A DNA stretch of 64,000 nt from an uncultured Bacilli bacterium (GCA_947631295.1 CANRKU010000003.1:4313-68312), one strand, 5' to 3'. Numbered from the stretch's first letter, positions 4,195-24,000 are shown. Notes: generated by a model from the letters alone, not told the origin. Numbers and translations: made by a program.

Positions 4195-5982
4195 CTATAA
4201 TCCTCCACCAGAACCAAAAGATTCTAACTCTTCAGGAGTAACGATTACATTAATTCTCATACGTCTATTTCCACAAACAAATAATGCTTCTCCTTGGGAA
4301 TAACGCTTAATACTTTCTTTTTCACTTTCATTTAAATCAATCAAACGGCTTAAATCATCAACAGCCTGTTTTTTAAGTCCCATTACCAAGTAATAAGACG
4401 CATTATCAAAAATTGCCTTACCATGAACAATTACACTAGGAGCTGCAAAATCACTAGGTTGTTGCGTTATAATAATAGAACCAGTATTATATTTACGAGC
4501 ACGACGTTGTACTTGTGCTAAAAACTCTGCACCAAGTGCATTGCTTCCAGAAAGTAATACATGAGCTTCATCTACCATTAAACAAGTATTAATACTTTTA
4601 TCTAAACATAAACCCCAAGCATATTTTAAAATATTAAAAAATAAGGCATTACGAATATTATCAGCTGAATTCATCAACTCTTTAATATTAAATACTATAA
4701 AATCAGTATTTGGATTAACAGTTGTATGACCATCAAAATAATATTTTAATTCTTGTGTCAATGGTCTAATCTTTAGTTCCAATTTTTCCATAATTGCACG
4801 TTCCTGAGTTTGTTCTGTCATTGATAAAAGTCTACCTTTAATAGTTTCATATACATCAGAAAAAGTTGGATAATCATTCGCTTGATAATGATAAAAATTA
4901 CTATTAAAATCAATTCCAAACCTTCTATAAGTATCCTGAACGATTTCACTAAACATCGTAAGAACATCTTCTTCAATAGATGGATCATAATATCTCATAA
5001 AACCTTTTAAAAATTGAAGTGTTCTAGTCAAAACAGTATATCCCAATCCTTCTTTAATTTCATCTTCATCAGCATCAATTACGATCTGTAATGGATTAAC
5101 CATACCATATTCTCCACCTTTACCAAGATCGATAGATTCTCCACCAAAATTAGATGCCATTTCAAAAAGTTCATTTTCTGGATCTATCGCAACAATTTGA
5201 TATCCATTACGAATATGGCTTCTTACCATTAATTTAGCAGCTGTAGATTTACCAGATCCAGAAGTACCTAAAATAACCAAATTTGCATTATTTCGATTAT
5301 TCTCTTTCTTTATTTGATATAAAAATTGGTTAAATAAAATAACTCCTCCTGAAAAATCTACTCCAAGTAGAGTGGATAATCCTGGATCCTTAATACTATC
5401 AAAAATAAAGGGATACATAGCTGCAATAGTTGGTGCAGGAATTGGTGTACCAATTCTCTGTTCTACATCTTGTTTTGGAAAAATAGGAACAATAGATTTT
5501 AATACTTTTTCTTGTTCAAAACGAAGAGCAACGCCTTTCATTTCCATCGCATCTAAATAATTTTTTACATTAATTTTCTTTAAATCTAACTCTTCTCTAG
5601 AATCGGCTGTAATCATAATATGCATCTGATAATCAAAAATTTTAGATTGGCTTCCTGCTAACATAGTAATAAAGGATTCCAAAGATTCATAATCTTGTCG
5701 AATTCTCTCTCTTGCAGTATTATCTCTTTCATCTTGATATCTAGTTTTTAAATCTGCAATTTGTTTATTAATCATTCTAGACATAGTTGAAAAAGGAATA
5801 GGAATATGTTTCGCAACTACTTTAACACCAGACATACTAGTTAATGATGACAAATATCCTGGATAAATATATTTAGGATAGGATACTACTGTTAAAATAG
5901 TTGCATATTTTCCACTGACAACAAAGTCACTTGGATTAAATTGTAGCCCCTTTGGAGCAACCTCGGACTTAAAAATACTCAT
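4195..5982 (-). CDS. VirB4/TraE-like T4SS ATPase (ATPase domain)
   Basis: Walker A LVILGTSGSGKSTAAK and Walker B CLMVDEAHVLL. Size and motif layout match the CagE/TrbE/VirB4 family. Confidence 0.8.
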   Translation of the reverse strand: MSIFKSEVAPKGLQFNPSDFVVSGKYATILTVVSYPKYIYPGYLSSLTSMSGVKVVAKHIPIPFSTMSRMINKQIADLKTRYQDERDNTARERIRQDYESLESFITMLAGSQSKIFDYQMHIMITADSREELDLKKINVKNYLDAMEMKGVALRFEQEKVLKSIVPIFPKQDVEQRIGTPIPAPTIAAMYPFIFDSIKDPGLSTLLGVDFSGGVILFNQFLYQIKKENNRNNANLVILGTSGSGKSTAAKLMVRSHIRNGYQIVAIDPENELFEMASNFGGESIDLGKGGEYGMVNPLQIVIDADEDEIKEGLGYTVLTRTLQFLKGFMRYYDPSIEEDVLTMFSEIVQDTYRRFGIDFNSNFYHYQANDYPTFSDVYETIKGRLLSMTEQTQERAIMEKLELKIRPLTQELKYYFDGHTTVNPNTDFIVFNIKELMNSADNIRNALFFNILKYAWGLCLDKSINTCLMVDEAHVLLSGSNALGAEFLAQVQRRARKYNTGSIIITQQPSDFAAPSVIVHGKAIFDNASYYLVMGLKKQAVDDLSRLIDLNESEKESIKRYSQGEALFVCGNRRMRINVIVTPEELESFGSGGGL

Positions 5983-6524
5983 GCAGGCATCACCGTCCCG
6001 AATGTAGTGGTAGAACCACCATTTAAGAAATTATCTAAAATAATTCTTAAATCTTCATTATTTGTTTGACTAGCAATCAATCCTGCTGTTGATAAACCGC
6101 TAATAAGAGAACGCACTTTCTTTTGAAGAAGATCTACGTTTTTCTCTTTAAATAGTATAAAGTATTCCGTATCAACAACATTATTATTCATAAAGTAATT
6201 TCCTTTCTGAATATCTTGATTCAATAATTTACGAATCTGTGGATTTTGTTGATTTTGATATTGTAACTGTAATTGTGATAAATACACAGATATATCAACA
6301 GGTCTATCAGCAACTACTAACCAAAATTCATAATCAATAGTATTGTAAAAATTTCGAAGTGCAATTAATACATTATTTTGTGCATCATCATCTAAAATGA
6401 AGATATTTCTAGGAGTTACTTTCACTCCAGATACTTTTTCTTGATTAGGTAATATAATCATACCATTAGATATTGATTGAATATTAATCCAATCCTCTGT
6501 CCATTTACTTTGAGTCTGATTCAT
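5979..6524 (-). CDS. Probable N-terminal domain of VirB4, either a separate ORF or a split gene
   Basis: 181-aa soluble ORF whose stop overlaps the VirB4 ATPase start (ATGA overlap). 181+595 aa approximates a full-length Gram-positive VirB4. Confidence 0.4.
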   Translation of the reverse strand: MNQTQSKWTEDWINIQSISNGMIILPNQEKVSGVKVTPRNIFILDDDAQNNVLIALRNFYNTIDYEFWLVVADRPVDISVYLSQLQLQYQNQQNPQIRKLLNQDIQKGNYFMNNNVVDTEYFILFKEKNVDLLQKKVRSLISGLSTAGLIASQTNNEDLRIILDNFLNGGSTTTFGTVMPA

Positions 6525-6822
6525 CTAAAAAACACCAACCCTTCCATACATAACGATTCCTGCTAGTAAAATATTTATAAATTTCTACAAGTAATTGCCT
6601 AATGTTATGGTAATAGGCAACAGGAGTTACTAATAATGCACTAACAATTCCAGGCATAATAGCTAATACTGCTACCCATGTAATTGACATTGGTAAAATC
6701 ATTACCAAAATCAAAGTAGTAGTAATTCCAATTCCAAAAATGGCTAAATCAATGGGCATAAACCACCCAAGTATTAGCTGTCCTCTTTTTGTATTAGCAG
6801 GTATTAAATAATTATTATTCAC
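6505..6822 (-). CDS. VirB3/ConD-like small two-TM T4SS membrane protein
   Basis: 105 aa with two hydrophobic helices, immediately upstream of VirB4 as in ICEBs1 conD-conE. Confidence 0.4.
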   Translation of the reverse strand: MNNNYLIPANTKRGQLILGWFMPIDLAIFGIGITTTLILVMILPMSITWVAVLAIMPGIVSALLVTPVAYYHNIRQLLVEIYKYFTSRNRYVWKGWCFLDESDSK

Positions 6823-6850: not shown

Positions 6851-8764
6851 TTATGATTTTCCACCACTACCGCTAAATCTATCATTTTGTTCTTTTTTTG
6901 CATTTTCACGTTTAGCAGTAGCAATTTCAATAGATAAATTATCGATTGCACCATTAACAGAATCTCTATTAGTAACATGCAATCCAAGAGCCTCGGCTTC
7001 ACCAATATTAGCAGCTAAAATCTTATCTTGACTAGCTCCACGAATTAAATAATCCTCTTCATTTCCTTTTTGGATTAATCCTTGATATCTTTCTGCATCC
7101 GCCATAGAAATTTCTTGCGCACCATCAGAAGTCATAATAACAAATGATTTTTCACCAGCTGCTGCAGCAGCATTTTTACGTGCCATAAAGTCTTTATAAT
7201 TAATAGATCCTGTAACACCTTCACCCGCAACATCTGTCATTAAAGCATTACCATCTTTATCCAATAGAAAAGCTTGAGTCCAATCTTGTTTTACCATTTC
7301 TCCACTTACACGTGATTTAATAGTTTCAAGAGAACTCTTTTGAGCTTCAAGTGCTGCAATATTCCTTTTTCCTCTATTTGCCGCAGTTTCGCCTCCAACT
7401 AATCCTGATAAAGAAGAACCAGCCCTTCCCAATAAAGTTGATCCCGCAGCACCTGCTGCCAATACTCCAGAATTTCTTTTAGCTAAAGCATCCATTACAG
7501 CTTTTGTATTATGATCCTTTGCATTTACTGCTGCAGATACCCCAGCACCCAAACCACTAGCTGCTCCAAAAAGCCCAGCACCAACATTCTTCATTCCACG
7601 AAGAACATTATGATCCTTACCATTAGCCTCATCAGCAAGATAACTTGCTCTACCTGAAGCAATAGCTGAACCGAGTGCACCAAGACCGAGTGCACCAGCA
7701 GACATAACTTTACTTAACCCTCCAAATAACTTACCATTTTCATTTCTTTTAATTCCCATGGCATCACAAATAAACTTTGGAGCATCTTTAGCGAAGAATA
7801 ATAAACCAATAATAAGAGCTAATATTACTAATCCACCACGAACGCCACTATTACCAAATAGCTCACTAGTTAAATTGCCAATGACATTACTTTGGAATAA
7901 CTCATAAATGACTAAAAATATAAAATAAATACAACCCAATTTAATAAATAATTCTGTCCATACACTAATTACCATTTTTATCCATTTAGAAAAAGCTCCA
8001 TCTTTTGAAGATTTAGGATCAATATAACTAATAATAGGTATGGGAGCAATCAATTGTAATATAATGAGTTTAAAAACACGTACCGCAATATCAATACAAT
8101 ATCCAAGAATAATTAATGTCATTACAATAGCAGTAATCATTCCAACAATTGGTATATACTCATATTTATAGCTATTATTATCACCATCGACAGGTTCATT
8201 TATATAATCCGTTGCCTGAGAAACTGTATGGACCCCCTCTGGTAAATTTTCCCGATTGGTATTAAAAAACACACCATTATAAGTACTAAATGCAATATCA
8301 GAACCCATAGTAGATAAAGATTGACCTAAATTATCACCTGAATTAACATTTTTTTGTAATATTATTCTTGGTAATGCCTCAATAATATGAGGTTGCACAG
8401 TATTTAAGAAATGAAATCCTGTTGGGAAGAAAATTAACATTGCTAAAGCTACAATCACTCTCGTTGACATCTTTCCAACACCACGTTCTTTATCGTTAAT
8501 ACTATCTGGGTTCACTAAATAAGACAACATAGAAATGGTAATTTTAAATAGCATATAAATTGTAATTATGACATATATTCTAGACTGTATTCCTGTATAA
8601 AAAGTACTAAATGCATCGCTTGTACTAACTTGCGCAATATCAAAAACTAATTGCATTACCCAACCGAATAGAGTATAAGCCATAGAATCTAGCCATGAAA
8701 ACATTCCCCTAATAGCGTTCCAAATAAGACCTCTATTATACATAGTAAAAATTAATTTATTCAT
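6851..8764 (-). CDS. VirB6/TrbL-like polytopic membrane protein with a C-terminal Gly/Ala-rich repetitive tail
   Basis: 637 aa. The N-terminal 400 aa carry at least 6 TM helices. The C-terminal 230 aa are Gly/Ala-rich (GALGLGALGSAIASG, GLFGAASGLGAGVSAAV). Position and architecture resemble ConG/TcpH. Confidence 0.5.
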   Translation of the reverse strand: MNKLIFTMYNRGLIWNAIRGMFSWLDSMAYTLFGWVMQLVFDIAQVSTSDAFSTFYTGIQSRIYVIITIYMLFKITISMLSYLVNPDSINDKERGVGKMSTRVIVALAMLIFFPTGFHFLNTVQPHIIEALPRIILQKNVNSGDNLGQSLSTMGSDIAFSTYNGVFFNTNRENLPEGVHTVSQATDYINEPVDGDNNSYKYEYIPIVGMITAIVMTLIILGYCIDIAVRVFKLIILQLIAPIPIISYIDPKSSKDGAFSKWIKMVISVWTELFIKLGCIYFIFLVIYELFQSNVIGNLTSELFGNSGVRGGLVILALIIGLLFFAKDAPKFICDAMGIKRNENGKLFGGLSKVMSAGALGLGALGSAIASGRASYLADEANGKDHNVLRGMKNVGAGLFGAASGLGAGVSAAVNAKDHNTKAVMDALAKRNSGVLAAGAAGSTLLGRAGSSLSGLVGGETAANRGKRNIAALEAQKSSLETIKSRVSGEMVKQDWTQAFLLDKDGNALMTDVAGEGVTGSINYKDFMARKNAAAAAGEKSFVIMTSDGAQEISMADAERYQGLIQKGNEEDYLIRGASQDKILAANIGEAEALGLHVTNRDSVNGAIDNLSIEIATAKRENAKKEQNDRFSGSGGKS

Positions 8765-8768
8765 ATAA

Positions 8769-10127
8769 TCACCATAACCTTATATCACATGCGGAATCAA
8801 ATAATGTATCAACAGAACTTAATATCAACATAATTATAGTTGGAACAAAGAAAATTGCTACAGCTATAACACAACGTTTAATAAATCTTCCTGTAGATTT
8901 TTGTAATTCTTGTTGATCATCTGATAATAATGGTTTAATAAAGTCTACACTACCTAATATAATTAATAGTATTGGAACAGCAATTCGAATCCAAGTTAAA
9001 ACAGTTGATAGATCATTAAGTAAATCAGGTCCTAATAAACCTTGACAAGAAGTATCACTTAGGTTTGTACCCATGTTCATTTCATCAAAATATTGATTAG
9101 TATCAGATATAGAATTTTCAATTTCCGTTTTCTGTTCAGAAAGTTGCTGTAAATCATCCTCTAATTCACTTCTACCAGAAGCAACTGCTTGAGAAACACT
9201 TTCATGAAATGAGTCAAAATAACCTTTTCCTGTTTCAAGAATACGTTTTAATACTCGCTGCAAATCTTGATATTTATCTGCTAAACCATTTTCGCAATTT
9301 GAAACAGAAAATCCATTGGAATCATCTGAAGCAGTAGTCAAATGTAAATTATCTAAATCTGTTAGGAGAGATCCCTGCCAACTTTTTAGGTTTGCCCATG
9401 CTTCTTGCATCGCAGCAGCATCACTATCATCAACAATCTCATTTGCATTTTTACTACCTAATTCTTTCATAGGGCTTAAATAACTTTCATATTCATTTGA
9501 ATACTTAGCACTTATCATATTTAAACTAGTTAAATAAGTACTACATGCCATTGCATCAGATACTTTATTTTTTCCTTTATGAATACCAGCAACTTTTAAA
9601 GTAGAATCTTCATACAGAGGAAGCCCTAAGCCTTTAGTATCAATGCCAATTTTCAAATCGTGACTTTTGTCAAGAAACATAAGTTCTTTACATGATAGTA
9701 CCCCATCTTGTACTAAATAATCTTTAATATCAGATCCAAATGATATTTTTTGATTGAGACCAGATCTATCCCAAGTATAATCAACCGTACTATTAACTAT
9801 TTGCCATTTATCCCCATTAGATGCTATAAAATATAAATTATTATTTTTAGAATCGTACATAAAAGCATAAATACCATTACTATAATATTGACTAATTACA
9901 TCATCCATTTTTCCATTCACATGAACCCCACCTGGTTCATAAAAACAATATTCATATTGATTATCAACAACTATATCTGACTCATCTTTATAAGGCCAAA
10001 CTTTCTCTGCCGCAAATACAGTAGGATTACAAATAAAAAAATAAACAAATACAAAAGTAAAGCAAATAACTTTTTTGAATACAAATAATGATTTCATAAA
10101 AACACTCCTCGTGATACAATAAACCAA
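8769..10127 (-). CDS. Secreted protein with a C-terminal pilin/VirB2-like two-helix hairpin
   Basis: Signal peptide (likely true start at internal MKSLFVF) and a 380-aa extracytoplasmic domain. The C-terminal AVPILLIILGSVDFIKPLLSDDQQELQKSTGRFIKRCVIAVAIFFVPTIIMLILSSV is paralogous to the downstream 113-aa protein. Confidence 0.5.
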   Translation of the reverse strand: MVYCITRSVFMKSLFVFKKVICFTFVFVYFFICNPTVFAAEKVWPYKDESDIVVDNQYEYCFYEPGGVHVNGKMDDVISQYYSNGIYAFMYDSKNNNLYFIASNGDKWQIVNSTVDYTWDRSGLNQKISFGSDIKDYLVQDGVLSCKELMFLDKSHDLKIGIDTKGLGLPLYEDSTLKVAGIHKGKNKVSDAMACSTYLTSLNMISAKYSNEYESYLSPMKELGSKNANEIVDDSDAAAMQEAWANLKSWQGSLLTDLDNLHLTTASDDSNGFSVSNCENGLADKYQDLQRVLKRILETGKGYFDSFHESVSQAVASGRSELEDDLQQLSEQKTEIENSISDTNQYFDEMNMGTNLSDTSCQGLLGPDLLNDLSTVLTWIRIAVPILLIILGSVDFIKPLLSDDQQELQKSTGRFIKRCVIAVAIFFVPTIIMLILSSVDTLFDSACDIRLW

Positions 10128-10140
10128 TATAATTATAGCA

Positions 10141-10174
10141 CAAAAAAAATAATAGCAAAACCTATTTTGCTATT
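10141..10174 (-). terminator. Rho-independent terminator or attenuator after the pilin-like gene
   Basis: Perfect 10-bp inverted repeat aatagcaaaa-cc-tattttgctatt, followed on the minus strand by a T-run (RC of caaaaaaaat). Confidence 0.55.
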
Positions 10175-10191
10175 ATTTTTATTTTTTGTAA

Positions 10192-10533
10192 CTAATCACT
10201 TAAATTGATCCAACAATCTTCCCAACTATAATCACCTGTACTAGTTTCTACGTCAGAACCACTAGTAGAGAACATTCCCATTAACAATGAAACTATGGTA
10301 GTAATAAAGAAAATTGCAATAGCGGCAATAGCACGTTTAATTAATTTACTAGTTGCCCCCTTAATTTCTTTATCATCGCTTGATAAAACAGCCTTACCTA
10401 AATCAATAGATCCCATAATAATTAAAATAATGGGAATACCAATTTGAATAATTGGATAAATACCATATTTTAGAAATCTAAAAACAGGTACCAAATGATC
10501 TGGACAAGTCATAATTTGTATTAAATTATTCAT
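10192..10533 (-). CDS. VirB2/TrbC-like or pilin-like small two-TM protein
   Basis: Likely start at MNNLIQ (ATG 10533). The upstream ATGAGGAGG reads as the SD sequence GAGGAGG. Helix-loop-helix motif IGIPIILIIMGSIDLGKAVLSSDDKEIKGATSKLIKRAIAAIAIFFITTIV. The gene has its own promoter and terminator. Confidence 0.5.
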   Translation of the reverse strand: MNNLIQIMTCPDHLVPVFRFLKYGIYPIIQIGIPIILIIMGSIDLGKAVLSSDDKEIKGATSKLIKRAIAAIAIFFITTIVSLLMGMFSTSGSDVETSTGDYSWEDCWINLSD

Positions 10534-10558
10534 AAACTTCCTCCTCATCTACAAAACA

Positions 10559-10587
10559 ATCATATAATAAATTGTTTATTTAGTCAA
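10559..10587 (-). promoter_or_regulatory. Sigma-A-like promoter for the pilin-like gene
   Basis: On the minus strand: TTGACT, a 17-nt spacer, then TATGAT, about 25 nt upstream of the SD. Confidence 0.4.
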
Positions 10588-10622
10588 TTACTTATAAACT
10601 TATTGACAATTTTTTACATATT

Positions 10623-11591
10623 TTAATAATTATTAATTCCAACCTTATTTAATAAGTTCTGTAACACTTCAGAATTATTCATTCTTTCATCTAAAGGTGG
10701 CAAGACGAAGAAAGTTTTTATATTAGCTTCATATTCAAATTCCCTAATATCACTATCTGATAAAATGCTTTGAGCTAAAACCACTTTTCTACCAGCAAGT
10801 TTTTCAAATATCTTGCGATCTCTCCTCATCAATTTATTTAATTTAATAGTAGATGGTTCTATTAAATACAAAACTTCAGTACATACATCAATATTACCAT
10901 CTTTATTTAAATCAATCAATATAACACTAACATCTTTATGCCTTAATAATTCATTTGCTAACTGATCATGATTAACAGATAATAATTCTTTATCATTAAA
11001 ATATAGAAAATCTTTTTTATCAACCTCAATAGCCAAAACACTTTTTCCCATATTTTTTAATTCCTGTTTTAACATATAAGTTAACATAGTAGCACCAGAA
11101 TGATCGGTAATATTTTTGATTCCTAGGATAAAAGTACCTGTTGAAATAATATTATTAATAACAGTATTTCCACCCTCTGTACTAGTAGTCGTTGTAGTAC
11201 TATCGATATCATCAATTTGATGCAAATGAGCTACATCACGGTAAGTATTAGGATTAGTTAATAAATAATTAACGCCGTCTAAATTAGTAGTAAAATTATA
11301 AATTCCCATTGAAATTAATCTAGACAAAAATCTTGGAGATAAGCATTCAGGAGTATCAGGAAGTAAAACTATTATCTTTTCAACATCTAAAGACATAGAC
11401 AATTTCTGAAGATTACGAACATCCTGATAATTCTTTAAAGCAGTTAAATCCAATATCATTCTTCCAAAAAAGAAATTACTAAACATTTGAATTAACTCAT
11501 CTGCTTCAAAAATACCATGAATAGACTTAATAATTTCAATATCTAAATTTGATAATTCTGTTTGTCTTTCATTTGATATAATTACATTCAT
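10623..11591 (-). CDS. TadZ/CpaE-like ParA/MinD-fold protein with a degenerate P-loop
   Basis: 322 aa. The segment ILGIKNITDHSGATMLTYMLKQELKNMGKSVLAIEVD aligns to the deviant Walker A/ParA pattern (xGaKGGvGKTT ... rVllvDlD) but lacks the lysines. Confidence 0.35.
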   Translation of the reverse strand: MNVIISNERQTELSNLDIEIIKSIHGIFEADELIQMFSNFFFGRMILDLTALKNYQDVRNLQKLSMSLDVEKIIVLLPDTPECLSPRFLSRLISMGIYNFTTNLDGVNYLLTNPNTYRDVAHLHQIDDIDSTTTTTSTEGGNTVINNIISTGTFILGIKNITDHSGATMLTYMLKQELKNMGKSVLAIEVDKKDFLYFNDKELLSVNHDQLANELLRHKDVSVILIDLNKDGNIDVCTEVLYLIEPSTIKLNKLMRRDRKIFEKLAGRKVVLAQSILSDSDIREFEYEANIKTFFVLPPLDERMNNSEVLQNLLNKVGINNY

Positions 11592-11615
11592 AATTTCACC
11601 CTATTCTATTGATTA

Positions 11616-12110
11616 CTAGGAACAACTGCTAGGAAGTGCATCTACAGCTCCTGATGAAAATATTAAAGCAGTCTCTCCCTTTACTAAAAATAAATTTCCA
11701 GCAAATGGTAGCACATTATTAACCAATGGCAAATCTACATTAACAAAAGTTGCAACTGTATAATAAGCACCCTTATATAATGAATTATCATTTGAAGTTC
11801 CAGTTACATCAACTTTTGAATATTTATAGCAAAAGCTTCCTGCATCTAATCTAGCAACTTGATAGCCATTATTAGTACACCAAGTTTCAAATTTAGAATT
11901 CATTTTATAATTATTTTTCAACATTAAATCATTAATCTGATCCTTTGCTGAACAAGTAAAACCTTCGTTTTTTTCAATAATACTACGTATCTCATTCTTT
12001 ACACGAAAAGCTTTAGTGTAATTAACACTAAAAGCTAAGTAACAATTAATAATAATCATAAAAATGACAATAATTTGCAGTGTCATTGCGCCACTTATAG
12101 CATCTCTCAC
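11616..12110 (-). CDS. TadE-like pseudopilin
   Basis: 164 aa with an N-terminal class-III-like signal/anchor MRDAISG|AMTLQIIVIFMIIINCYLAF followed by a soluble domain. Confidence 0.4.
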   Translation of the reverse strand: MRDAISGAMTLQIIVIFMIIINCYLAFSVNYTKAFRVKNEIRSIIEKNEGFTCSAKDQINDLMLKNNYKMNSKFETWCTNNGYQVARLDAGSFCYKYSKVDVTGTSNDNSLYKGAYYTVATFVNVDLPLVNNVLPFAGNLFLVKGETALIFSSGAVDALPSSCS

Positions 12111-12127
12111 ACTATCACCACACTATT

Positions 12128-12277
12128 CTATCGTTCAATACAATTACCATATTGATCTTTTTGACTACATTTTTCAATTGCATTCCATTGATCTGTAATT
12201 GTACCTCTTATCTGTGGCCACATAAACCAGAAAAATGCAATAATCGCACCAATAGCAATAATTGTTACAACAGTCAT
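12128..12277 (-). CDS. Small pilin-like (Flp-size) hydrophobic protein, not in the ORF track
   Basis: Minus-strand ORF MTVVTIIAIGAIIAFFWFMWPQIRGTITDQWNAIEKCSQKDQYGNCIER (49 aa). GGAG lies 9 nt upstream. It is preceded by an extended -10 (TGTTATAAT) and a 7-codon uORF with a strong SD. Confidence 0.35.
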   Translation of the reverse strand: MTVVTIIAIGAIIAFFWFMWPQIRGTITDQWNAIEKCSQKDQYGNCIER

Positions 12278-12404
12278 ATTTAATTCTCCAGTTGCCTCTT
12301 TCATTTTCTCATCCTCCTTTATTGTATATATTTATATTATAACACATATTTAAATGATTACTACTATTATTTTTATTAATTTACACAATATAACTAAAAT
12401 TTAT

Positions 12405-13763
12405 TTAATAACTAGTATATACTTTATCACCAGATGGTAATGTTTCTAGATAATTAGCATTTTCAAGAACCCAATCCTTATATATCAAAGATAATTGCGT
12501 ATATTTTTTATCATTAAAATAAGAATTATCCAATATAAATAAACATTTTTCATTTTTACACTGATTTTCTAATTGAAGAACATATTTTTTTTCATTTTTT
12601 CCCATATTTCCATCATTAATTAAATCATAAAAAGATAAAGTTTCATTGCGATAAAGCTTAATTAAGTATGAATTATCCAAAAATAAATATATTTTTTGAT
12701 TTTTATATTTATTTAAATAAGATGAATATTCTGGCAAATATATATCCATATTAGCAGTAACTCTCTGAAATTTTAAATAACTGTCAATCGGAAAAATTTC
12801 CGAATTAGGAATAGGAATAATTAGAATTGTTATAATGAATCCAATTAATAAAAAATATTTTGTAATAAATTTTCTATTGCTTTTATCCTGTGACAATATA
12901 TAATACACAATAGGAATTAACATAGTAATGATATGATGATTATCAACAATCGGAAAAACAATAATTGAAAAACCAATCATGTATAAAATATTATCATTTT
13001 TAGTTTGAAAATAATCTTTTATCAAAAGGCTATAAACAATCAAAAGAACGAATACCCCATAAATATCTATATATAAGTTATCCATAAAATTTGTAAGTCC
13101 CAAATAGCATAAATCAATATAAGAAAGTAATGAATGGTGTAATATCAGATAAATAAGTATAGGAATAATTGGAATAAAAATACTAAAAAACACCTTTAAA
13201 TTTCTTTTATTAATAAATAAATATATAAAAGCTAAAACAAAACCAATATTTTGTTTAGTCATAATAATCATACCAATAATAATACCAATAAGAAAATCTT
13301 TTATTTTAATATTGGTATCATTTAATATTAAAATTGCCAATACTAAAACAGCACAAAAAGTATTATAGGTAAACATACAGGGAGATAGACCAATTACCAT
13401 AATTAAATATACAAAATCTAATTTCTTTGGTAATTTATAAAATGCAAAAGTGAGTATTAAAGAACAAATAATACTATTAGCAAGATTAAATATTAGAATA
13501 TAATTTCCAAAAACTTTTATAAAATACGAAATTAAAATATTGTAAAAAGGACCCACAATCATATTAAAATCACGATAAGGAATTAACCCATTAGCAATAT
13601 TATAACTAAAACCAAAACTCCATATATCATCCATACTAATTAAGTGGAAAAATGAAGATATTAAAAAAAGCAAAAAAACATTAATTATATAGACTAATAA
13701 ATATTTTAAATATCGAGAATTATGAAACATTACTGTACACCTCATATAATAACATAATAGCAT
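12405..13763 (-). CDS. Polytopic integral membrane protein (at least 12 TM). A Wzy/O-antigen-ligase-like or glycosyltransferase-like role is possible
   Basis: 452 aa, almost entirely hydrophobic helices with one about 70-aa loop. No ATPase or peptidase motifs. Confidence 0.45.
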   Translation of the reverse strand: MLLCYYMRCTVMFHNSRYLKYLLVYIINVFLLFLISSFFHLISMDDIWSFGFSYNIANGLIPYRDFNMIVGPFYNILISYFIKVFGNYILIFNLANSIICSLILTFAFYKLPKKLDFVYLIMVIGLSPCMFTYNTFCAVLVLAILILNDTNIKIKDFLIGIIIGMIIMTKQNIGFVLAFIYLFINKRNLKVFFSIFIPIIPILIYLILHHSLLSYIDLCYLGLTNFMDNLYIDIYGVFVLLIVYSLLIKDYFQTKNDNILYMIGFSIIVFPIVDNHHIITMLIPIVYYILSQDKSNRKFITKYFLLIGFIITILIIPIPNSEIFPIDSYLKFQRVTANMDIYLPEYSSYLNKYKNQKIYLFLDNSYLIKLYRNETLSFYDLINDGNMGKNEKKYVLQLENQCKNEKCLFILDNSYFNDKKYTQLSLIYKDWVLENANYLETLPSGDKVYTSY

Positions 13764-13793
13764 ATTTCTACTTACAAGACAATTCGTTTTATG

Positions 13794-13823
13794 TCAAAAA
13801 AAATGTAAGTAAATAACTTACAT
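13794..13823 (-). terminator. Rho-independent terminator after the tadC-like gene
   Basis: Hairpin atgtaagt-aaata-acttacat, followed on the minus strand by a T9 run. Confidence 0.5.
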
Positions 13824-13877
13824 TATAATCTTTAACTTTTTTTATGTTGTCGCAATCATCTACTATGGAATATCATT

Positions 13878-14663
13878 TTAAATATTAGCAAACATATAAA
13901 TCATAGAAATCAAAATAAGTACCATAACACCAGCACCAGTTGCTATTAACATAACCATGGTTTGACTTTCCATATGAGCTAGTCTTTCTTTATATTTTTG
14001 ATCTCTCGCTTTAGCCTGCAAATTAGATACAGTTCTTGAGAACATTAATAATCTTTCCTGCTTATCTTCTTGTTTACCTAAACCTAGACGATATAAAAGT
14101 CTCATCATTCTCATAGAATCTCTAACAGGATATTGATTAGCAAATTCCATATAAGGATCAATACTATAATCACCAGCATCTATTTTAGCAATCATTTCTC
14201 TTAATCCTGGTTTAAAAATATCAGGAGCATCATCAATTGATTTAGCAAGTGCAACTGGTACAGTATAATGTTGTATCAAAATCTCTAATCCTTTTAAGTA
14301 ATAAGGAAGCATAACATCAATATCATGCAAATGTCTCTTATAATATTTTTTTAAAGACGTATAATTTGATTTAAAAACTAAATATCCAACAAAAATAGAT
14401 AACACAATATTAATAGCACTAAGCTCAGTCAAAAAAATAAACAAGAAAACTACAATAACTAGAAATGCCATTTTTATTCTTTTATTAAATAAAACATTAG
14501 GATCTACACTATCACCATATTTAGCTGCTACTAAGAAATCATAATCCTCTTCTTTTAACATTTGAAAGACAACTTGATTATCTTGAATAAATTTCTTACC
14601 ATCTACCGTTCTATTATAAAGTAATACCCCAAGAATTAACGCCCCACAAATAATTACTTCCAT
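13878..14663 (-). CDS. TadC-like inner-membrane platform protein (T2SS-F fold)
   Basis: 261 aa. Topology is TM1, then a TM2-3 hairpin, a cytoplasmic domain of about 130 aa, and a C-terminal TM. It is paired with the adjacent paralog downstream of the ATPase. Confidence 0.55.
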   Translation of the reverse strand: MEVIICGALILGVLLYNRTVDGKKFIQDNQVVFQMLKEEDYDFLVAAKYGDSVDPNVLFNKRIKMAFLVIVVFLFIFLTELSAINIVLSIFVGYLVFKSNYTSLKKYYKRHLHDIDVMLPYYLKGLEILIQHYTVPVALAKSIDDAPDIFKPGLREMIAKIDAGDYSIDPYMEFANQYPVRDSMRMMRLLYRLGLGKQEDKQERLLMFSRTVSNLQAKARDQKYKERLAHMESQTMVMLIATGAGVMVLILISMIYMFANI

Positions 14664-15556
14664 TACTCAGCACCTACATTCTCGTTATAATATTTTTCTC
14701 CTTTAAGAAGAAAATAACTATTTACTATTAATACACCATGCAATATTAATAACATTAACGGGTTTCCTAGTATCGCAATGTAGGTTTCTCTACCTAATAA
14801 ATACTGTACTAACATAACCATCAAATATAACATAACACCATATTTTAAGAAAGATTTGTGGAAATTAGCTCTATCTATTCTATCACGATATACACTTTCT
14901 ACAAGCATATCGATATCAAGTTGCATATTTTCTAAAGATTCTCCAGAATCCTTGGCACCCTCTTTAGTAATCTGTAAAAATAATTGATGCATATTTTTGA
15001 CAATATAATATGGATATTTACTGCTCATAAATTGAATAGATTCATCAATAGAACCATTTTGATAAGCTAAAGATATCATCATATTAACATCAGTTAATAC
15101 AGGATCTTCTAATACACCACTTGCTACAACTCCTTCTAGTGATTTAACAAAACTTTGAGTAGTAGCAAATTCCATAATAGTATTTGTTGTATAAACTTGA
15201 ACTTGTTCAAAAATAAATTCACTATATACTCTTTTACATCTTAGAAATGCTAAATAAGGTATACATGCATTAGCAAGTAAGATATAAATAATAGATATCA
15301 ATAAATTATAAAAATAAAGATAAGAAATAACACCAGCAAATATAGTAAAAACAATAGACTGTGTAATATACTGTTTTGGTGTATATTCCTGTCCTAGTTC
15401 TTTGGTTTTTTCTCTTACTACTTTAAAAGAGTAAGGAGCAAATTTATCATAGACAATACTTGCTTGTTCTGTAATAAATTTATATACGTTTTGTCCTCGA
15501 TATTGTCGATAAACTAATACAAATAAAGTAATTAATAATATAATAATTAATTCCAT
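14663..15556 (-). CDS. TadB-like inner-membrane platform protein (T2SS-F fold)
   Basis: 297 aa with the same topology as the neighbouring ORF. Start overlaps the upstream gene. Confidence 0.55.
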   Translation of the reverse strand: MELIIILLITLFVLVYRQYRGQNVYKFITEQASIVYDKFAPYSFKVVREKTKELGQEYTPKQYITQSIVFTIFAGVISYLYFYNLLISIIYILLANACIPYLAFLRCKRVYSEFIFEQVQVYTTNTIMEFATTQSFVKSLEGVVASGVLEDPVLTDVNMMISLAYQNGSIDESIQFMSSKYPYYIVKNMHQLFLQITKEGAKDSGESLENMQLDIDMLVESVYRDRIDRANFHKSFLKYGVMLYLMVMLVQYLLGRETYIAILGNPLMLLILHGVLIVNSYFLLKGEKYYNENVGAE

Positions 15557-15569
15557 AACTTACACCCCT

Positions 15570-16958
15570 TTACGAGTTCTCTGGATTATAACTCATATTG
15601 CCACTTGAAAAATTATGAGTCTGCGGATTAATAGAAGTTGGATTAGTTGCAATTGGAGAAGGTATTACATAAGGTGGTACTCTTCTAATTTCTCCTTCTG
15701 CAGAATTGACAGAATGAATTGCTGGATTAACAGGACTAGATATTACAGTAGAATTAGAATTAGAATTTACTGGAATATTAGGTACAGTATTTACAGTAGT
15801 AGTTGGAGCAACAGTAGGAACTTCTTCTATTTTATTTTCTTCTACAATTTTATCTAAATCAAATTCTTCATTTATACCACTTCCTACAGCATTTCCAGAT
15901 TCTGAAGAAAAAGTAGTATTTCCAACATCAATATTTTGACCTGCCAAATAATCAATTAAATGTTTACTAGGTTGTTTTTTAATAATTTTACCTGTCATAG
16001 TCTTTTGATAGATAACATTATAAACAGGTTCATTTGTCTCATCATCGATATAAAACTCTGTAATTTCATCAATCTCACGATGAAACTTGCCATACTTTGG
16101 ACTAAAATAAGCTTTTATATGCACAGCAAGCTGTACATAACGATAAATTGTACTTAAGAATTGATCAACATCCAAATCAGTTTCCATCAAAGAATACATT
16201 CTATGTGGAACTGCACTTGCTTTATCAGAATGGATAGTAGATAAGATATTATGTCCAGAAGATATGGAATTACGAACAGCACTAACTGCTTCAGCACTAC
16301 GAACTTCTGATAATAATATCCACTTTGGATTTTGTCGCATACAAGTAACTAATACATCAGAATAAGAAGCAATATTATTCGTCTTCATTGCTACAATATC
16401 ACGATGTGGATAAATACGATCCAAGTGAAGTTCCAAAGTATCCTCAATCGTAATAATTTTTTCATCTTCTTTAGTATGACTAGCCAAATATTTAACAAAC
16501 TCAGTTTTACCACTACCAGTCTCCCCACACACAATAATATTACAGTGGCCTAAAACACATTTTATTAAAAAATCATGAATGTCTTTAGTAACATAATCTT
16601 CTTGTAATAGATTTTCCTCTTTTAAACGAATCTTAGCTGGAGTCTTACGTATAACTAATGCAATTCCATTAGTTGCAATTGATTCATGCACAAAATTCAA
16701 ACGTAATTCTGGACTTTCAGCATCCAAGAAGGGGCTAGCATTATTGAAAGTAGTTCCCATAACATTTGAACATTGAAAAGCTAATTTCTCCACTACGCTA
16801 TTATTGATATTAGGATTTTCAACTCGGTAAGAACCTTTTTCCAAAGAACGAACCCAAATTTGTCCATTATTAGTATAAGAGATATCCGTAATGTCATCAT
16901 TGTCAATATATTCCTTAAAAGCTCCAAAATCAAGTTGCTCAAACATATTGTCTTTCAT
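15570..16958 (-). CDS. CpaF/TadA-type secretion ATPase (VirB11/GspE superfamily) with a Pro/Asn/Thr-rich C-terminal tail
   Basis: Walker A IVCGETGSGKTEF, Asp box KWILLSEVRSAE, His box GHNILSTIHSD. There is a low-complexity C-terminal extension of about 90 aa. Confidence 0.8.
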   Translation of the reverse strand: MKDNMFEQLDFGAFKEYIDNDDITDISYTNNGQIWVRSLEKGSYRVENPNINNSVVEKLAFQCSNVMGTTFNNASPFLDAESPELRLNFVHESIATNGIALVIRKTPAKIRLKEENLLQEDYVTKDIHDFLIKCVLGHCNIIVCGETGSGKTEFVKYLASHTKEDEKIITIEDTLELHLDRIYPHRDIVAMKTNNIASYSDVLVTCMRQNPKWILLSEVRSAEAVSAVRNSISSGHNILSTIHSDKASAVPHRMYSLMETDLDVDQFLSTIYRYVQLAVHIKAYFSPKYGKFHREIDEITEFYIDDETNEPVYNVIYQKTMTGKIIKKQPSKHLIDYLAGQNIDVGNTTFSSESGNAVGSGINEEFDLDKIVEENKIEEVPTVAPTTTVNTVPNIPVNSNSNSTVISSPVNPAIHSVNSAEGEIRRVPPYVIPSPIATNPTSINPQTHNFSSGNMSYNPENS

Positions 16959-16987
16959 AGGACCCCTCCATTTATTCTTTTTCTTAT

Positions 16988-17815: not shown

Positions 17816-17829
17816 AACAATTCCCCTTT

Positions 17830-18258: not shown

Positions 18259-18267
18259 ACATACCTC

Positions 18268-22142: not shown

Positions 22143-22152
22143 GTAACACCTC

Positions 22153-23997: not shown

Positions 23998-24000
23998 ATA

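What the first reader, a model, noticed from the sequence alone, without database searches (positions are those of the whole stretch)
8769..10620. Pilin-like gene cassette (own promoter, strong SD, two-helix protein, terminator) with a paralogous hairpin fused to the C-terminus of the next large secreted protein
The 113-aa protein is IGIPIILIIMGSIDLGKAVLSSDDKEIKGATSKLIKRAIAAIAIFFITTIV. The C-terminus of the 452-aa secreted protein is IAVPILLIILGSVDFIKPLLSDDQQELQKSTGRFIKRCVIAVAIFFVPTIIML. The two are clearly homologous helix-loop-helix membrane hairpins. The small gene has a TTGACT-17-TATGAT promoter and is followed by a perfect hairpin terminator. That is the classic layout of a highly expressed major pilin (VirB2/TrbC-like) followed by a minor, tip-like variant. 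The listed start at 10548 is actually the SD (ATGAGGAGG), so the real start is 10533. Pilus subunits are unexpected in Firmicute T4SSs.
Basis: seen in the sequence. Interest (0 to 1): 0.6.

Follow-up and report, generated by a model that had tools for sequence, protein, structure and literature searches.

The report
Pilin-like hairpin genes in T4SS locus
Two related genes for small membrane hairpins sit between a pilus-like gene set and a type IV secretion gene set in the chromosome of an uncultured gut bacterium; they resemble the "pilin" subunits that Gram-positive transfer machines are usually said to lack, but nobody has tested whether they build a filament.

Summary
A 113-aa protein (10533..10192, minus strand) and the C-terminus of the next protein (442 aa from ATG 10097, not 452) share a two-helix hairpin (45% identity over 62 aa, E=4e-17). 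The promoter, SD and terminator around the small gene recur at fixed positions in about 75 related loci.

Both proteins are divergent relatives of Pfam PF18895 "T4SS_pilin". They score below its cut-off, but close homologues pass. They lie directly upstream of VirB6-like, VirB3-like, split VirB4, wall hydrolase and VirD4 genes of the mycoplasma-ICE type. The locus is chromosomal and syntenic in about 90 RF39-like gut Bacilli.

In deeper relatives the second copy is a short signal-peptide-plus-hairpin protein. The ectodomain fusion seen here is also widespread: almost all of the 150 best of 9750 matching protein clusters have it. A cysteine pair flanking the hairpin is conserved.

The small gene travels with the upstream Tad/VirB11-like module and persists in 12 loci with no adjacent T4SS. 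Pilin-like hairpins in monoderm T4SSs already have database precedents.

Verdict: a new variant of a known kind. A filament is unproven.

The parts
10559..10587 (-). Sigma-70-type promoter of the small gene: TTGACT (10587..10582), 17-nt spacer, TATGAT (10564..10559)
   Evidence: Found. A near-consensus equivalent lies at the same distance from the ATG in 72 of 79 related loci.
10540..10546 (-). Shine-Dalgarno GAGGAGG, 6 nt before ATG 10533. The ATG at 10548 lies inside it.
   Evidence: Sequence. GGAGG-type SD is present in nearly all related loci.
10192..10533 (-). Small leaderless hairpin protein, 113 aa. Helix 12-50, loop SSDDKEIKGATSKLIKR, helix 55-89, acidic tail. C10 and C107 are invariant.
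   Evidence: Gene calls. Alignment A1. AF2 pLDDT 72. PF18895 E=4.5e-4, 20.7 bits against a cut-off of 26.6. All 28 aligned homologues have PF18895 as their top family. Segment charges.
10141..10177 (-). Intrinsic-terminator-like stem-loop (10177..10148) followed by a U-run (10147..10141)
   Evidence: -21.2 kcal/mol, z=-5.3. Equivalent hairpins occur in 61 of 78 loci against 16% of random windows.
10132..10140 (-). Extended -10 element TGcTATAAT, directly after the terminator. Likely the promoter of the downstream T4SS genes.
   Evidence: Sequence. A similar element within 140 nt of the small gene's stop occurs in 55 of 78 loci against 7% of random windows.
8769..10097 (-). 442-aa secreted protein. 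Signal peptide residues 1-29 (10097..10011). Ectodomain residues 30-350 (beta domain 49-175, helical bundle 181-338). Hairpin module residues 351-442 (9047..8772) with C351 and C437.
   Evidence: AF2 pLDDT 83. PF18895 E=3e-3, 18 bits. The N-domain is only 29-41% identical among homologues, while the hairpin is 68-73% identical even where the rest does not align.
6851..8764 (-). VirB6-like polytopic membrane protein, 637 aa
   Evidence: NCBIfam Mbov_0396 family ICE transmembrane protein E=1e-10 and MMCAP2_0566 family E=9e-11, both below cut-off. Weak TrbL_4 match. Syntenic in 55 loci.
6505..6822 (-). VirB3-like small membrane protein, 105 aa (assigned by position)
   Evidence: Directly upstream of VirB4. 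Weak match to residues 2-96 of the VirB3-VirB4 fusion model NF045975, E=0.08. Syntenic in 48 loci.
4195..6524 (-). VirB4 ATPase split into two overlapping genes: 181 aa (6524..5979) and 595 aa (5982..4195)
   Evidence: NF045975 VirB4_plasma E=5.6e-13 and 5e-103, below the equivalog cut-off. P-loop_TraG and AAA_10. The split is present in all 47-48 loci that carry VirB4, at 74-94% identity.
1664..4159 (-). Cell-wall hydrolase, 831 aa (VirB1 analogue)
   Evidence: PF01832 Glucosaminidase E=1.9e-24.
881..1660 (-). 259-aa N-terminally anchored protein. It is a lipoprotein-like protein in relatives. Role unknown.
1..823 (-). Start of the VirD4-type coupling protein, cut by the window edge. It is 746 aa on other contigs.
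   Evidence: Translation. PF02534 T4SS-DNA_transf E=6.6e-23. Full-length gene on L085-L087 with TrwB_AAD_bind and TraG-D_C.
10623..18258 (-). Upstream Tad/VirB11-like module. DUF5411 (18258..17830), CpaB/RcpC-like (17815..16988), T2SSE ATPase (16958..15570), two unclassified membrane proteins (15556..13878), 452-aa polytopic protein (13763..12405), 58-aa and 164-aa N-terminal-TM proteins (12304..11616), 322-aa ParA-like protein (11591..10623).
   Evidence: Always directly upstream of the small gene: 80 of 84 loci, and the other 4 have too little upstream sequence.

Best explanation
The two genes encode paralogous two-helix membrane hairpins of the PF18895 "T4SS_pilin" type. They are the VirB2-equivalent subunits of a chromosomal type IV secretion system of the mycoplasma-ICE / MPF-FATA kind, in an RF39-like uncultured gut member of the class Bacilli.

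Shown:
- The two hairpins are homologous.
- Close homologues pass the PF18895 cut-off.
- The genes lie directly upstream of VirB6-like, VirB3-like, split VirB4, wall hydrolase and VirD4 genes.
- The locus is chromosomal and syntenic in about 90 species.
- The small copy has no signal peptide and is an insulated unit: near-consensus promoter, strong SD, terminator, then a fresh extended -10 promoter.
- The second copy carries a signal peptide and, in this lineage, a fast-evolving ectodomain of about 320 aa.
- A cysteine pair flanks the hairpin in most family members.

Inferred mechanism:
- Both proteins insert with N- and C-termini outside and the lysine/arginine-rich loop inside.
- The two outside cysteines form a disulfide that staples the ends. 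This would be functionally comparable to the head-to-tail cyclisation of T-pilin and RP4 TrbC (my recollection, not tested).
- The abundant small hairpin is the repeating subunit of the envelope-spanning conduit, either a short pilus or a channel sleeve through the wall. VirB4 extracts it from the membrane and it is stacked on the VirB6 platform.
- The ectodomain-bearing paralogue co-assembles in low copy through the shared hairpin. It displays its variable domain at the surface as an adhesin, tip or wall adaptor.
- The adjacent Tad/VirB11-like module probably works with the same machine.
For: - Hairpin homology: E=4e-17 and hhalign E=3e-40.
- PF18895 is the top Pfam family for 28 of 28 small-protein homologues.
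- Close homologues pass the 26.6-bit cut-off: P0320 32.5, P0316 27.7 and the fused P0142 27.0. A sequence one residue different from P0320 (L050_127) matches the large protein at E=1.6e-20 and the small one at 1.2e-9.
- Context: VirB6-, VirB3-, VirB4-, hydrolase- and VirD4-like genes. Synteny holds in 47-55 loci.
- In deep relatives the second copy is a 127-150-aa protein made of signal peptide, Cys, hairpin and Cys, directly upstream of VirB6. This is the canonical VirB2 layout.
- Expression signals are conserved.
- The helical hairpin is modelled by AF2 in both proteins.
- Charge distribution: loop +2, C-tail -6.
- The Cys pair is present in 322 of 430 distinct domains and in 194 of 223 small ones. 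It aligns in one column across paralogues.
- Housekeeping genes flank the locus, so it is chromosomal.
- Divergence of VirB4 correlates with that of the Tad-like genes and the small gene, rho 0.65-0.80.
- Precedent: pilin arrays in the MPF-FATA-related T4SS of Patescibacteria, essential in one species (PMC12102498, PMC12857230).
Against: - The two window proteins themselves score below the PF18895 cut-off: 20.7 and 18.0 bits against 26.6.
- No similarity to classical VirB2/TrbC, to solved pilins or to TraB of pIP501 was detectable.
- The small protein is well conserved (median 62%, up to 78% identity). Exposed pilins usually diversify, so this fits a buried machine part at least as well.
- It has no signal peptide.
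- Twelve loci with at least 6 kb of downstream sequence keep the small gene, with its promoter and cysteines, but have no T4SS gene nearby.
- No PF18895 protein has been shown to form a filament.
- Topology, disulfide, stoichiometry and polymerisation are all inferred.
Confidence: 0.6

Rival explanations
1. The hairpins are membrane-resident T4SS assembly or channel components, like TraB/TrsB of pIP501. TraB has a signal peptide and a two-TM hairpin, is N-out/C-out, is essential for transfer, forms oligomers and binds other channel proteins. On this reading they are not subunits of an extracellular filament, and the large paralogue simply anchors an ectodomain to the machine.
For: The topology and size match TraB (PMC9083827). 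The small protein is highly conserved. No filament is known in any walled Firmicute T4SS (PMC12857230). The second copy has a signal peptide, as TraB does.
Against: No sequence relationship to TraB: hhalign probability 0.3% and 1.4 bits with the hairpin HMM. TraB is PF16943 T4SS_CagC, and my proteins never hit that family or the NCBIfam CagC-family naming model. The insulated promoter-and-terminator layout suggests a much higher copy number than a simple recruitment factor would need. Pfam files TraB under CagC, which the TraB authors cite as the proposed major pilin of the H. pylori T4SS, so this rival differs from the main reading mainly in whether a polymer leaves the membrane.
Confidence: 0.3
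2. The small leaderless hairpin belongs functionally to the upstream Tad/VirB11-like pilus module, for example as a membrane platform accessory or a second filament component. Only the signal-peptide-bearing paralogue belongs to the T4SS. The two are neighbours because the T4SS module was inserted next to, or lost from, a pre-existing Tad-plus-hairpin unit.
For: The ParA-like gene of the Tad-like module is directly upstream in 80 of 84 loci. Twelve loci from at least two clades have the Tad-like module, the small gene and a 370-aa anchored protein, then housekeeping genes and no T4SS. In those loci only one hairpin gene is present. The T4SS module therefore behaves as a present-or-absent block that begins at the second hairpin gene.
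Against: No described Tad/Flp system has a two-TM hairpin component (my knowledge of Tad systems, not tested here). The small protein is clearly homologous to the T4SS-linked copy. Divergence of the small protein tracks VirB4 (rho 0.69) about as well as it tracks the TadB-like protein (rho 0.73). The Tad assignment itself is thin: only the ATPase, whose best match is VirB11, and the CpaB-like protein have family hits.
Confidence: 0.2
3. The resemblance to T4SS pilins is only the generic similarity of hydrophobic hairpins. On this reading the genes encode something unrelated to secretion, such as a holin-like or immunity-type membrane protein.
For: All direct family scores for the window proteins are below cut-off. 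Profile hits to GPCR helices show how readily TM hairpins give weak matches.
Against: PF18895 is the top family in 28 of 28 homologues. Homologues pass its cut-off. The position is fixed directly upstream of VirB6/VirB3/VirB4 in about 50 loci. Polar loop residues (D53 D54 K55 E56 K58 K66 R67) are invariant, not just the hydrophobic ones.
Confidence: 0.03

Closest known systems
Pfam PF18895 "T4SS_pilin" proteins, including the VirB2-like pilin arrays next to virB4 in Patescibacteria (PMC12102498; Southlakia array discussed in PMC12857230)
   Same: Two-helix hairpin. Sequence family: close homologues pass the HMM cut-off. Gene next to the VirB6/VirB3/VirB4 genes of an MPF-FATA-related T4SS in a monoderm. 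Several sequence-divergent paralogues per locus. Chromosomal, lineage-conserved locus with no relaxase in the DNA I could read.
   Different: The host is a walled, probably spore-forming Bacillus-class lineage (RF39), not Patescibacteria. One copy is leaderless, highly conserved and separately transcribed. The other carries a large ectodomain. A VirD4 coupling protein and a wall hydrolase are present. The locus is fused to a Tad/VirB11-like module. The window proteins themselves score below the Pfam cut-off.
Mycoplasma ICE T4SS: CDS15/Mbov_0395, CDS16/Mbov_0396, CDS17/Mbov_0397
   Same: VirB4 and the VirB6-like protein are most similar to these families. There is a small hairpin gene directly upstream of the VirB6-like gene. 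NCBI names it "pilin-like conjugal transfer protein" (NF045849). The literature calls CDS13/CDS15 VirB3-like (PMC12857230).
   Different: The hairpins match NF045849 only at E=0.09-0.43. Here VirB4 is split into three genes (105, 181 and 595 aa). A wall hydrolase is present. The locus is not an obvious ICE: it has housekeeping flanks on the side I could read, synteny across about 90 species, and no integrase, transposase or relaxase in the part I could read.
TraB/TrsB of pIP501, pRE25 and pSK41-type plasmids (Pfam PF16943 T4SS_CagC)
   Same: Small T4SS protein of Firmicutes with a signal peptide plus two-TM hairpin, predicted N-out/C-out with a short conserved cytoplasmic loop. Essential for transfer, forms oligomers, found in membrane and wall fractions (PMC9083827).
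   Different: No detectable sequence relationship. A different Pfam family. TraB has no flanking cysteine pair in the pRE25 sequence. No leaderless paralogue or ectodomain fusion is described. TraB lies next to the relaxase gene rather than next to VirB6.
Classical VirB2/TrbC/TraA conjugative pilins of Gram-negative T4SSs (PF04956)
   Same: Size, hairpin topology, and a positively charged loop expected on the cytoplasmic or lumen side. The gene lies within the T4SS operon. The layout of signal peptide plus mature hairpin is seen in the short paralogues of relatives.
   Different: No sequence or profile similarity: hhalign probability 0.2%, equal to controls. No hits among PDB sequences. One relative gives sub-threshold TrbC and TrwL hits, E=3.5e-4 and 2.5e-3. 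A filament is proven for these proteins and not for mine.

Membership tests
Pfam PF18895 T4SS_pilin | Score at or above the curated gathering cut-off (26.6 bits) for the protein itself | tested here: not met
   Small protein 20.7 bits (E=4.5e-4). Large protein 18.0 bits (E=3e-3). All 28 aligned homologues also score below the cut-off, best E=5.1e-5.
Pfam PF18895 T4SS_pilin | Demonstrable homology to proteins that do pass the cut-off | tested here: met
   P0320 32.5 bits, P0316 27.7 bits and the fused P0142 27.0 bits pass. L050_127, which differs from P0320 by one residue, matches the large protein at E=1.6e-20 and the small one at 1.2e-9. P0142 is 73% identical to the large protein over the hairpin. 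hhalign of the leaderless group against the rest gives E=3e-40. I therefore file the window proteins as divergent relatives of this family, not as formal Pfam members.
Pfam PF18895 T4SS_pilin | Two antiparallel hydrophobic helices joined by a short polar loop | tested here: met
   AF2 models: helices 12-50 and 55-89 in the small protein, 357-392 and 395-441 in the large one.
Pfam PF18895 T4SS_pilin | Encoded next to T4SS core genes | tested here: met
   Directly upstream of VirB6-like, VirB3-like and VirB4 genes. Conserved in about 50 loci.
Classical VirB2/TrbC pilins (PF04956; solved T4SS pilins) | Sequence or profile similarity to VirB2/TrbC | tested here: not met
   No PF04956 hit for any of 28 homologues at E<=0.1. 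hhalign of 428 hairpin domains against 7 real VirB2/TrbC sequences gives probability 0.2%, E=0.38. Reversed and column-shuffled controls give 0.0-0.6%. No PDB sequence hits. Only P0316 gives sub-threshold TrbC E=3.5e-4 and TrwL E=2.5e-3. Caveat: the VirB2 template alignment was shallow (Neff 2.9).
Classical VirB2/TrbC pilins (PF04956; solved T4SS pilins) | Fold match to solved pilin structures | tested here: inconclusive
Classical VirB2/TrbC pilins (PF04956; solved T4SS pilins) | Cleavable signal peptide preceding the mature hairpin | tested here: inconclusive
   Judged by inspection only; no predictor was run. The large protein and the short paralogues of relatives have a typical N-terminal signal sequence. 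The small protein has none: its N-terminus aligns with the mature end of the others.
Classical VirB2/TrbC pilins (PF04956; solved T4SS pilins) | Polymerises into an extracellular filament | not testable with these tools
   Needs microscopy or biochemistry on an uncultured organism, or heterologous expression.
TraB/TrsB of pIP501 (PF16943 T4SS_CagC) | Sequence membership | tested here: not met
   TraB of pRE25 scores 58.1 bits on PF16943. My proteins never hit it. hhalign against TraB gives probability 0.3%. tblastn of P0320 against 72,556 plasmids gave no match.
Mycoplasma ICE Mbov_0395 pilin-like protein (NCBIfam NF045849) | Score at or above the cut-off (40 bits) | tested here: not met
   10.3-12.5 bits, E=0.09-0.43, for the small protein, P0201 and P0320.
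Mycoplasma ICE Mbov_0395 pilin-like protein (NCBIfam NF045849) | Position directly upstream of Mbov_0396-type and Mbov_0397-type genes | tested here: met
   The next genes match NF045889 (E=1e-10) and NF045975 (E=5e-103), both below their equivalog cut-offs.
TcpE/ConC family (PF12648, VirB3-like) | Sequence membership | tested here: not met
   No PF12648 hit at E<=0.1 in 28 homologues. A separate 105-aa gene directly upstream of VirB4 is the VirB3-like candidate.

The most novel reading that the evidence does not exclude
A large order of walled, genome-reduced gut Bacilli (RF39) uses a conserved chromosomal hybrid machine. A Tad/VirB11-like module is fused to a mycoplasma-ICE-type T4SS that builds a true VirB2-type conduit or pilus through the Gram-positive wall. 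The conduit is made from a leaderless, disulfide-stapled pilin and decorated by ectodomain-bearing pilin paralogues. On this reading pilins were ancestral to monoderm MPF-FATA systems. The essential pilin arrays of Patescibacteria were then inherited with the T4SS rather than co-opted, and RF39 may share a contact-dependent lifestyle with them.
Probability: 0.15. Interest if true: 0.8.

Novelty: new variant of a known kind. Interest (0 to 1): 0.55.

Why it matters
Recent reviews state that VirB2-type pilins are absent from Gram-positive T4SSs, with Patescibacteria as the single exception (PMC12857230, PMC4027160). The Patescibacteria study left open whether their pilins came with the MPF-FATA-type system or were co-opted from elsewhere (PMC12102498).

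This locus shows PF18895-type pilin-like hairpins sitting beside VirB6/VirB3/VirB4 of a mycoplasma-ICE-type T4SS, in about 90 species of ordinary walled Bacilli. The family is large: 9750 clusters at 50% identity matched a profile that also included the ectodomain columns. It comes in three forms: leaderless, signal-peptide-bearing and ectodomain-fused.

That makes the origin question testable by phylogeny. It also gives candidates for the missing wall-spanning element of Gram-positive T4SSs. The tight coupling to a Tad/VirB11-like module, and the chromosomal conservation in a genome-reduced, uncultured gut lineage, hint at a domesticated contact machine rather than a mobile element.

If the hairpins turn out to be membrane-resident only, the finding reduces to a new family of TraB-like T4SS components.

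Tried and rejected
- Sequence and profile searches of the small family, a mixed hairpin profile and a signal-peptide paralogue against all PDB chains gave only spurious TM-helix hits.
- Foldseek of both AF2 models against the PDB gave nothing significant. The ectodomain gave only generic helical bundles, best E=0.11, and no VirB5-like hit.
- I ran hhalign against a VirB2/TrbC alignment built from 7 of 8 annotated plasmid genes I fetched. My recalled VirB2 query was first verified at 97.5% identity to annotated virB2. Probability was 0.2%, no better than reversed or shuffled controls.
- hhalign and HMM comparison with TraB of pRE25/pIP501 gave no relationship.
- tblastn of a signal-peptide paralogue against PLSDB plasmids gave no match.
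- The single-sequence promoter scan was not informative, and the terminator scan missed the AT-rich hairpin. Comparative analysis replaced them.
- I looked for a relaxase, integrase or transposase. None appeared in the window's locus or in the 2.3 kb after VirD4 on another contig. That stretch holds a 770-aa protein with a weak, sub-threshold cadherin-like match. DNA further left could not be read.
- I looked for sortase sorting motifs in the neighbouring large surface proteins and found none.
- The idea that the ectodomain is homologous to the 370-aa anchored protein that separates the two hairpin genes in relatives was rejected: no BLAST hit.
- ConC/TcpE identity was rejected.
Full report
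**1. What is in the sequence**

All features lie on the minus strand. The small gene runs from ATG 10533 to TAG 10192 (113 aa). The alternative ATG at 10548 lies inside the Shine-Dalgarno GAGGAGG (10546..10540). Homologues start at the position of M(10533), and gene callers on four independent contigs give 113 aa.

The next gene is best read from ATG 10097, which is preceded by GAGGAG. That gives 442 aa rather than 452. It begins with a signal-peptide-like segment ending VFA|AEK, judged by inspection.

The two hairpins align at 45% identity over 62 residues, E=4e-17. A profile-profile comparison of the leaderless group against all other hairpin domains gives probability 100%, E=3e-40.

**2. 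Expression signals**

A single-sequence scan finds the TTGACT-17-TATGAT promoter, but promoter-like sites are no commoner than in shuffles. The terminator scan misses the AT-rich hairpin. Comparison across related loci settles both points.

| Signal | Related loci | Control |
|---|---|---|
| 10-12 of 12 match to TTGACA-N16-18-TATAAT, -10 ending 22-30 nt before the ATG, with a GGAGG SD | 72 of 79 | not run |
| Stem-loop of -8 kcal/mol or better before a T-run, just after the stop codon | 61 of 78 | 16% of 300 random windows |
| Extended -10-like element within 140 nt of the stop | 55 of 78 | 7% of random windows |

The stem sequences differ between clades. The window's own hairpin (10177..10148 plus U-run) folds at -21.2 kcal/mol, z=-5.3. 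It is followed at once by an extended -10 element, TGcTATAAT (10140..10132).

The small gene is therefore an insulated unit with strong signals, and the downstream genes restart from their own promoter. High expression is inferred, not measured.

**3. Context in the window**

Downstream of the two hairpin genes, in order:
- a VirB6-like polytopic protein (Mbov_0396 family, E=1e-10);
- a 105-aa VirB3-like candidate;
- VirB4 split into 181-aa and 595-aa genes (Mbov_0397-type "VirB4_plasma", E=5.6e-13 and 5e-103, both below the equivalog cut-off);
- an 831-aa glucosaminidase;
- a 259-aa anchored protein;
- the start of a VirD4 coupling protein, cut by the window edge (PF02534 E=6.6e-23; 746 aa on other contigs).

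Upstream lies a Tad-like module: a T2SSE ATPase, a CpaB/RcpC-like protein, DUF5411, a ParA-like protein, and several small or polytopic membrane proteins without family hits. The ATPase's best NCBIfam match is VirB11 (E=2.6e-35), followed by a TadA-family conjugal-transfer-associated ATPase. Further upstream are a class B sortase and large surface proteins.

To the right of 25.6 kb the genes are housekeeping: RseP, CdsA, UppS, CotE, MiaB, SerRS and PFL. No tRNA gene was found in the window, and no integrase, transposase or relaxase in the locus or in the 2.3 kb after VirD4 that I could read. The locus is chromosomal.

**4. Distribution and synteny**

The small protein has 670 homologues at 60-78% identity among those listed. 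All are unnamed and come from MAGs labelled Bacilli, Tenericutes or Mycoplasmatota. A scan of species-representative genomes found 95 matching stretches. They include Ca. Faecenecus, which GTDB places in order RF39, family CAG-611 (PMC8035907). RF39 is predicted to have a peptidoglycan wall and to form spores (PMC10868615), which fits CotE, the sortase and the hydrolase seen here.

Across the loci fetched (84 in the tables, 80 of them from distinct genomes) the gene order is: sortase, 1033-aa protein, DUF5411, CpaB, ATPase, two membrane proteins, 58-aa protein, 164-aa protein, ParA-like, small hairpin, one or two further hairpin proteins, VirB6, VirB3-like, VirB4 N-part, VirB4 C-part, hydrolase, lipoprotein, VirD4.

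Median identity to the window's proteins:

| Protein | Median identity |
|---|---|
| VirB4 C-part | 80% |
| Small hairpin | 62% |
| VirB6-like | 34% |
| Large hairpin protein | 33% |

Divergence of VirB4 correlates with that of the TadB-like and ParA-like proteins (rho 0.80 each), the ATPase (0.65) and the small hairpin (0.69). The modules have therefore been inherited together rather than exchanged recently.

**5. The hairpin family**

A hairpin HMM finds one copy in 30 of the loci scanned, two in 49 and three in 6. The additional copies are always at the C-terminus of proteins of 124-631 aa, directly upstream of VirB6.

In deeper-branching relatives the second copy is a short protein (127-150 aa). 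It consists of a signal peptide, a cysteine, the hairpin and a second cysteine, as in P0320 and P0316. That is the canonical VirB2 layout.

In the window's lineage about 320 residues are inserted between signal peptide and hairpin. AF2 models them as a beta domain plus a helical bundle (pLDDT 83). There is no significant PDB match and no VirB5-like hit.

This fused architecture is common. A profile search of 1.84 billion cluster representatives gave 9750 clusters at E<=0.001 and 6736 at E<=1e-10. Almost all of the 150 best are proteins of 270-640 aa. The profile had 343 positions and included ectodomain columns, so these counts are not for the hairpin alone.

A cysteine about 20 residues before helix 1 and another about 20 residues after helix 2 align in single columns across paralogues. 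Both are present in 322 of 430 distinct domains, and in 194 of 223 small proteins. Invariant residues in the small family include polar loop residues (D53 D54 K55 E56 K58 K66 R67), not only hydrophobic ones.

**6. Family assignment**

PF18895 "T4SS_pilin" is the top Pfam family for both window proteins and for 28 of 28 small-protein homologues, but always below the 26.6-bit cut-off. Close homologues pass: P0320 32.5, P0316 27.7 and the fused P0142 27.0 bits. I therefore treat the window proteins as divergent relatives of PF18895.

Links to other hairpin families failed:
- Classical VirB2/TrbC: hhalign of 428 hairpin domains against seven real VirB2/TrbC sequences gave probability 0.2%, the same as reversed and shuffled controls.
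- Solved structures: no hits among PDB sequences and nothing from Foldseek.
- pIP501/pRE25 TraB: probability 0.3%. TraB itself scores as PF16943 T4SS_CagC.
- The mycoplasma ICE "pilin-like" model NF045849: only E=0.09-0.43. The gene position relative to the Mbov_0396- and Mbov_0397-type genes is the same.
- TcpE/ConC (VirB3-like): no hit.

**7. Most likely mechanism**

Shown:
- The two hairpins are homologous.
- They are related to PF18895.
- Their position beside the T4SS core genes is fixed.
- The expression signals are conserved.
- The hairpin is conserved while the ectodomain varies.
- The cysteine pair is conserved.

Inferred:
- Both proteins insert with the K/R-rich loop inside and both ends outside. 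Net charges in the small protein are loop +2 and C-tail -6.
- The outside cysteines form a disulfide staple.
- The abundant small hairpin is the repeating unit of the wall-spanning conduit, whether short pilus or channel sleeve. It would be built by VirB4 on the VirB6 platform through the gap opened by the hydrolase.
- The ectodomain paralogue co-assembles in low copy and presents a variable surface domain.

I put about 0.6 on [quoted passage not shown]. Within that reading I give only about 0.3 to a true extracellular filament.

**8. What argues against, and the rivals**

- The small protein is more conserved than exposed pilins usually are. It lacks a signal peptide.
- It is kept, with promoter and cysteines intact, in 12 loci from at least two clades. 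In most of these, the Tad-like module, the small gene and a 370-aa anchored protein are followed directly by housekeeping genes with no T4SS. Either the T4SS is elsewhere in those genomes, which I could not check, or the small hairpin also works with the Tad-like module.
- A TraB-like, membrane-resident role fits the topology and the conservation.
- No PF18895 protein has been shown in a filament.

**9. Relation to what is known, and novelty**

Reviews state that VirB2 homologues are missing from Gram-positive T4SSs except in Patescibacteria (PMC12857230, PMC4027160). The Patescibacteria survey could not decide whether their pilins came with the MPF-FATA-type system (PMC12102498).

Databases already hold precedents: PF18895, NF045849 and TraB as a CagC-family protein. 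The kind is therefore known.

What is new here:
- the host lineage;
- the leaderless, separately transcribed, conserved copy;
- the widespread ectodomain fusion;
- the conserved cysteine pair;
- the fusion of the T4SS with a Tad/VirB11-like module in a conserved chromosomal locus.

I rate it a new variant of a known kind, with interest 0.55.

Noticed in passing
window 10623-25563 (- strand): A Tad/VirB11-like gene set (T2SSE ATPase with best NCBIfam match VirB11, CpaB/RcpC-like, DUF5411, ParA-like, and several unclassified membrane and short N-terminal-TM proteins), plus a class B sortase and large surface proteins. It is collinear with the T4SS genes in about 60 species, and its divergence correlates with VirB4 (rho 0.65-0.80). 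It looks like one hybrid super-locus. The putative platform and pilin genes have no family hits.
   Followed up: partly
L016, L019, L021, L022, L025, L027, L048, L054, L073, L078, L080, L083 (6-10 kb downstream of the small gene): Twelve related loci keep the Tad-like module and the small hairpin gene, usually with a 370-aa anchored protein. Within the 6-10 kb read downstream they have no second hairpin gene and no VirB6, VirB4 or VirD4; several run straight into housekeeping genes. The T4SS block behaves as a present-or-absent module that starts at the second hairpin gene.
   Followed up: partly
window 4195-6822 (- strand): VirB4 is split into a 105-aa membrane protein, a 181-aa N-part and a 595-aa ATPase part, with short overlaps. 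In mycoplasma ICEs the matching model (NF045975, 894 aa) is a single protein. The split is conserved in all 47-48 loci that carry VirB4, so it is not a sequencing frameshift.
   Followed up: partly
window 12405-13763 (- strand): A 452-aa polytopic membrane protein (weak DUF7649 hit) sits between the 58-aa pilin-like gene and the TadC-like gene. It is present in only 9 of the related loci, and the region has the lowest GC of the window (0.228). It is possibly an inserted modifying enzyme such as a glycosyltransferase. Not examined.
   Followed up: no
L050:10433-11551, L029:10441-11559, L056:10349-11518, L016:10417-11529: In many relatives a 370-390-aa N-terminally anchored protein lies between the small hairpin gene and the second hairpin gene. 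It is weakly similar to the window's 614-aa surface protein, which has Ig-like and DUF6273 domains. It is absent at that position in the window. It is not homologous to the ectodomain of the 442-aa protein.
   Followed up: partly
window 1-823 (- strand); L085:1446-6386: A VirD4-type coupling protein starts at 823 and runs off the window. On another contig it is 746 aa and is followed by a 770-aa protein with a weak, sub-threshold cadherin-like match (E=1.3e-3). No relaxase was seen in the DNA available.
   Followed up: partly
L015 and L032 (both from MAG SUG1219): One MAG holds two different copies of the locus. Their small proteins are 68% and 61% identical to the window's. This is either a duplicated system or a mixed bin.
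   Followed up: no
window 33981-34703 (- strand): A 240-aa protein with ankyrin-repeat matches (Ank_4 E=1.3e-9), next to an HTH-domain protein. Unusual for a gut Bacillus-class genome. Not examined.
   Followed up: no
L096:21625-21957 (pRE25): TraB/TrsB of pIP501-type plasmids scores clearly as Pfam PF16943 T4SS_CagC (E=1.3e-15), with a weak TrbC/VirB2 hit (E=2.5e-3). The authors who characterised it saw no relevant relation to VirB2 pilins, and reviews state that Gram-positive T4SSs lack VirB2 homologues. The database annotation and the literature disagree.
   Followed up: partly
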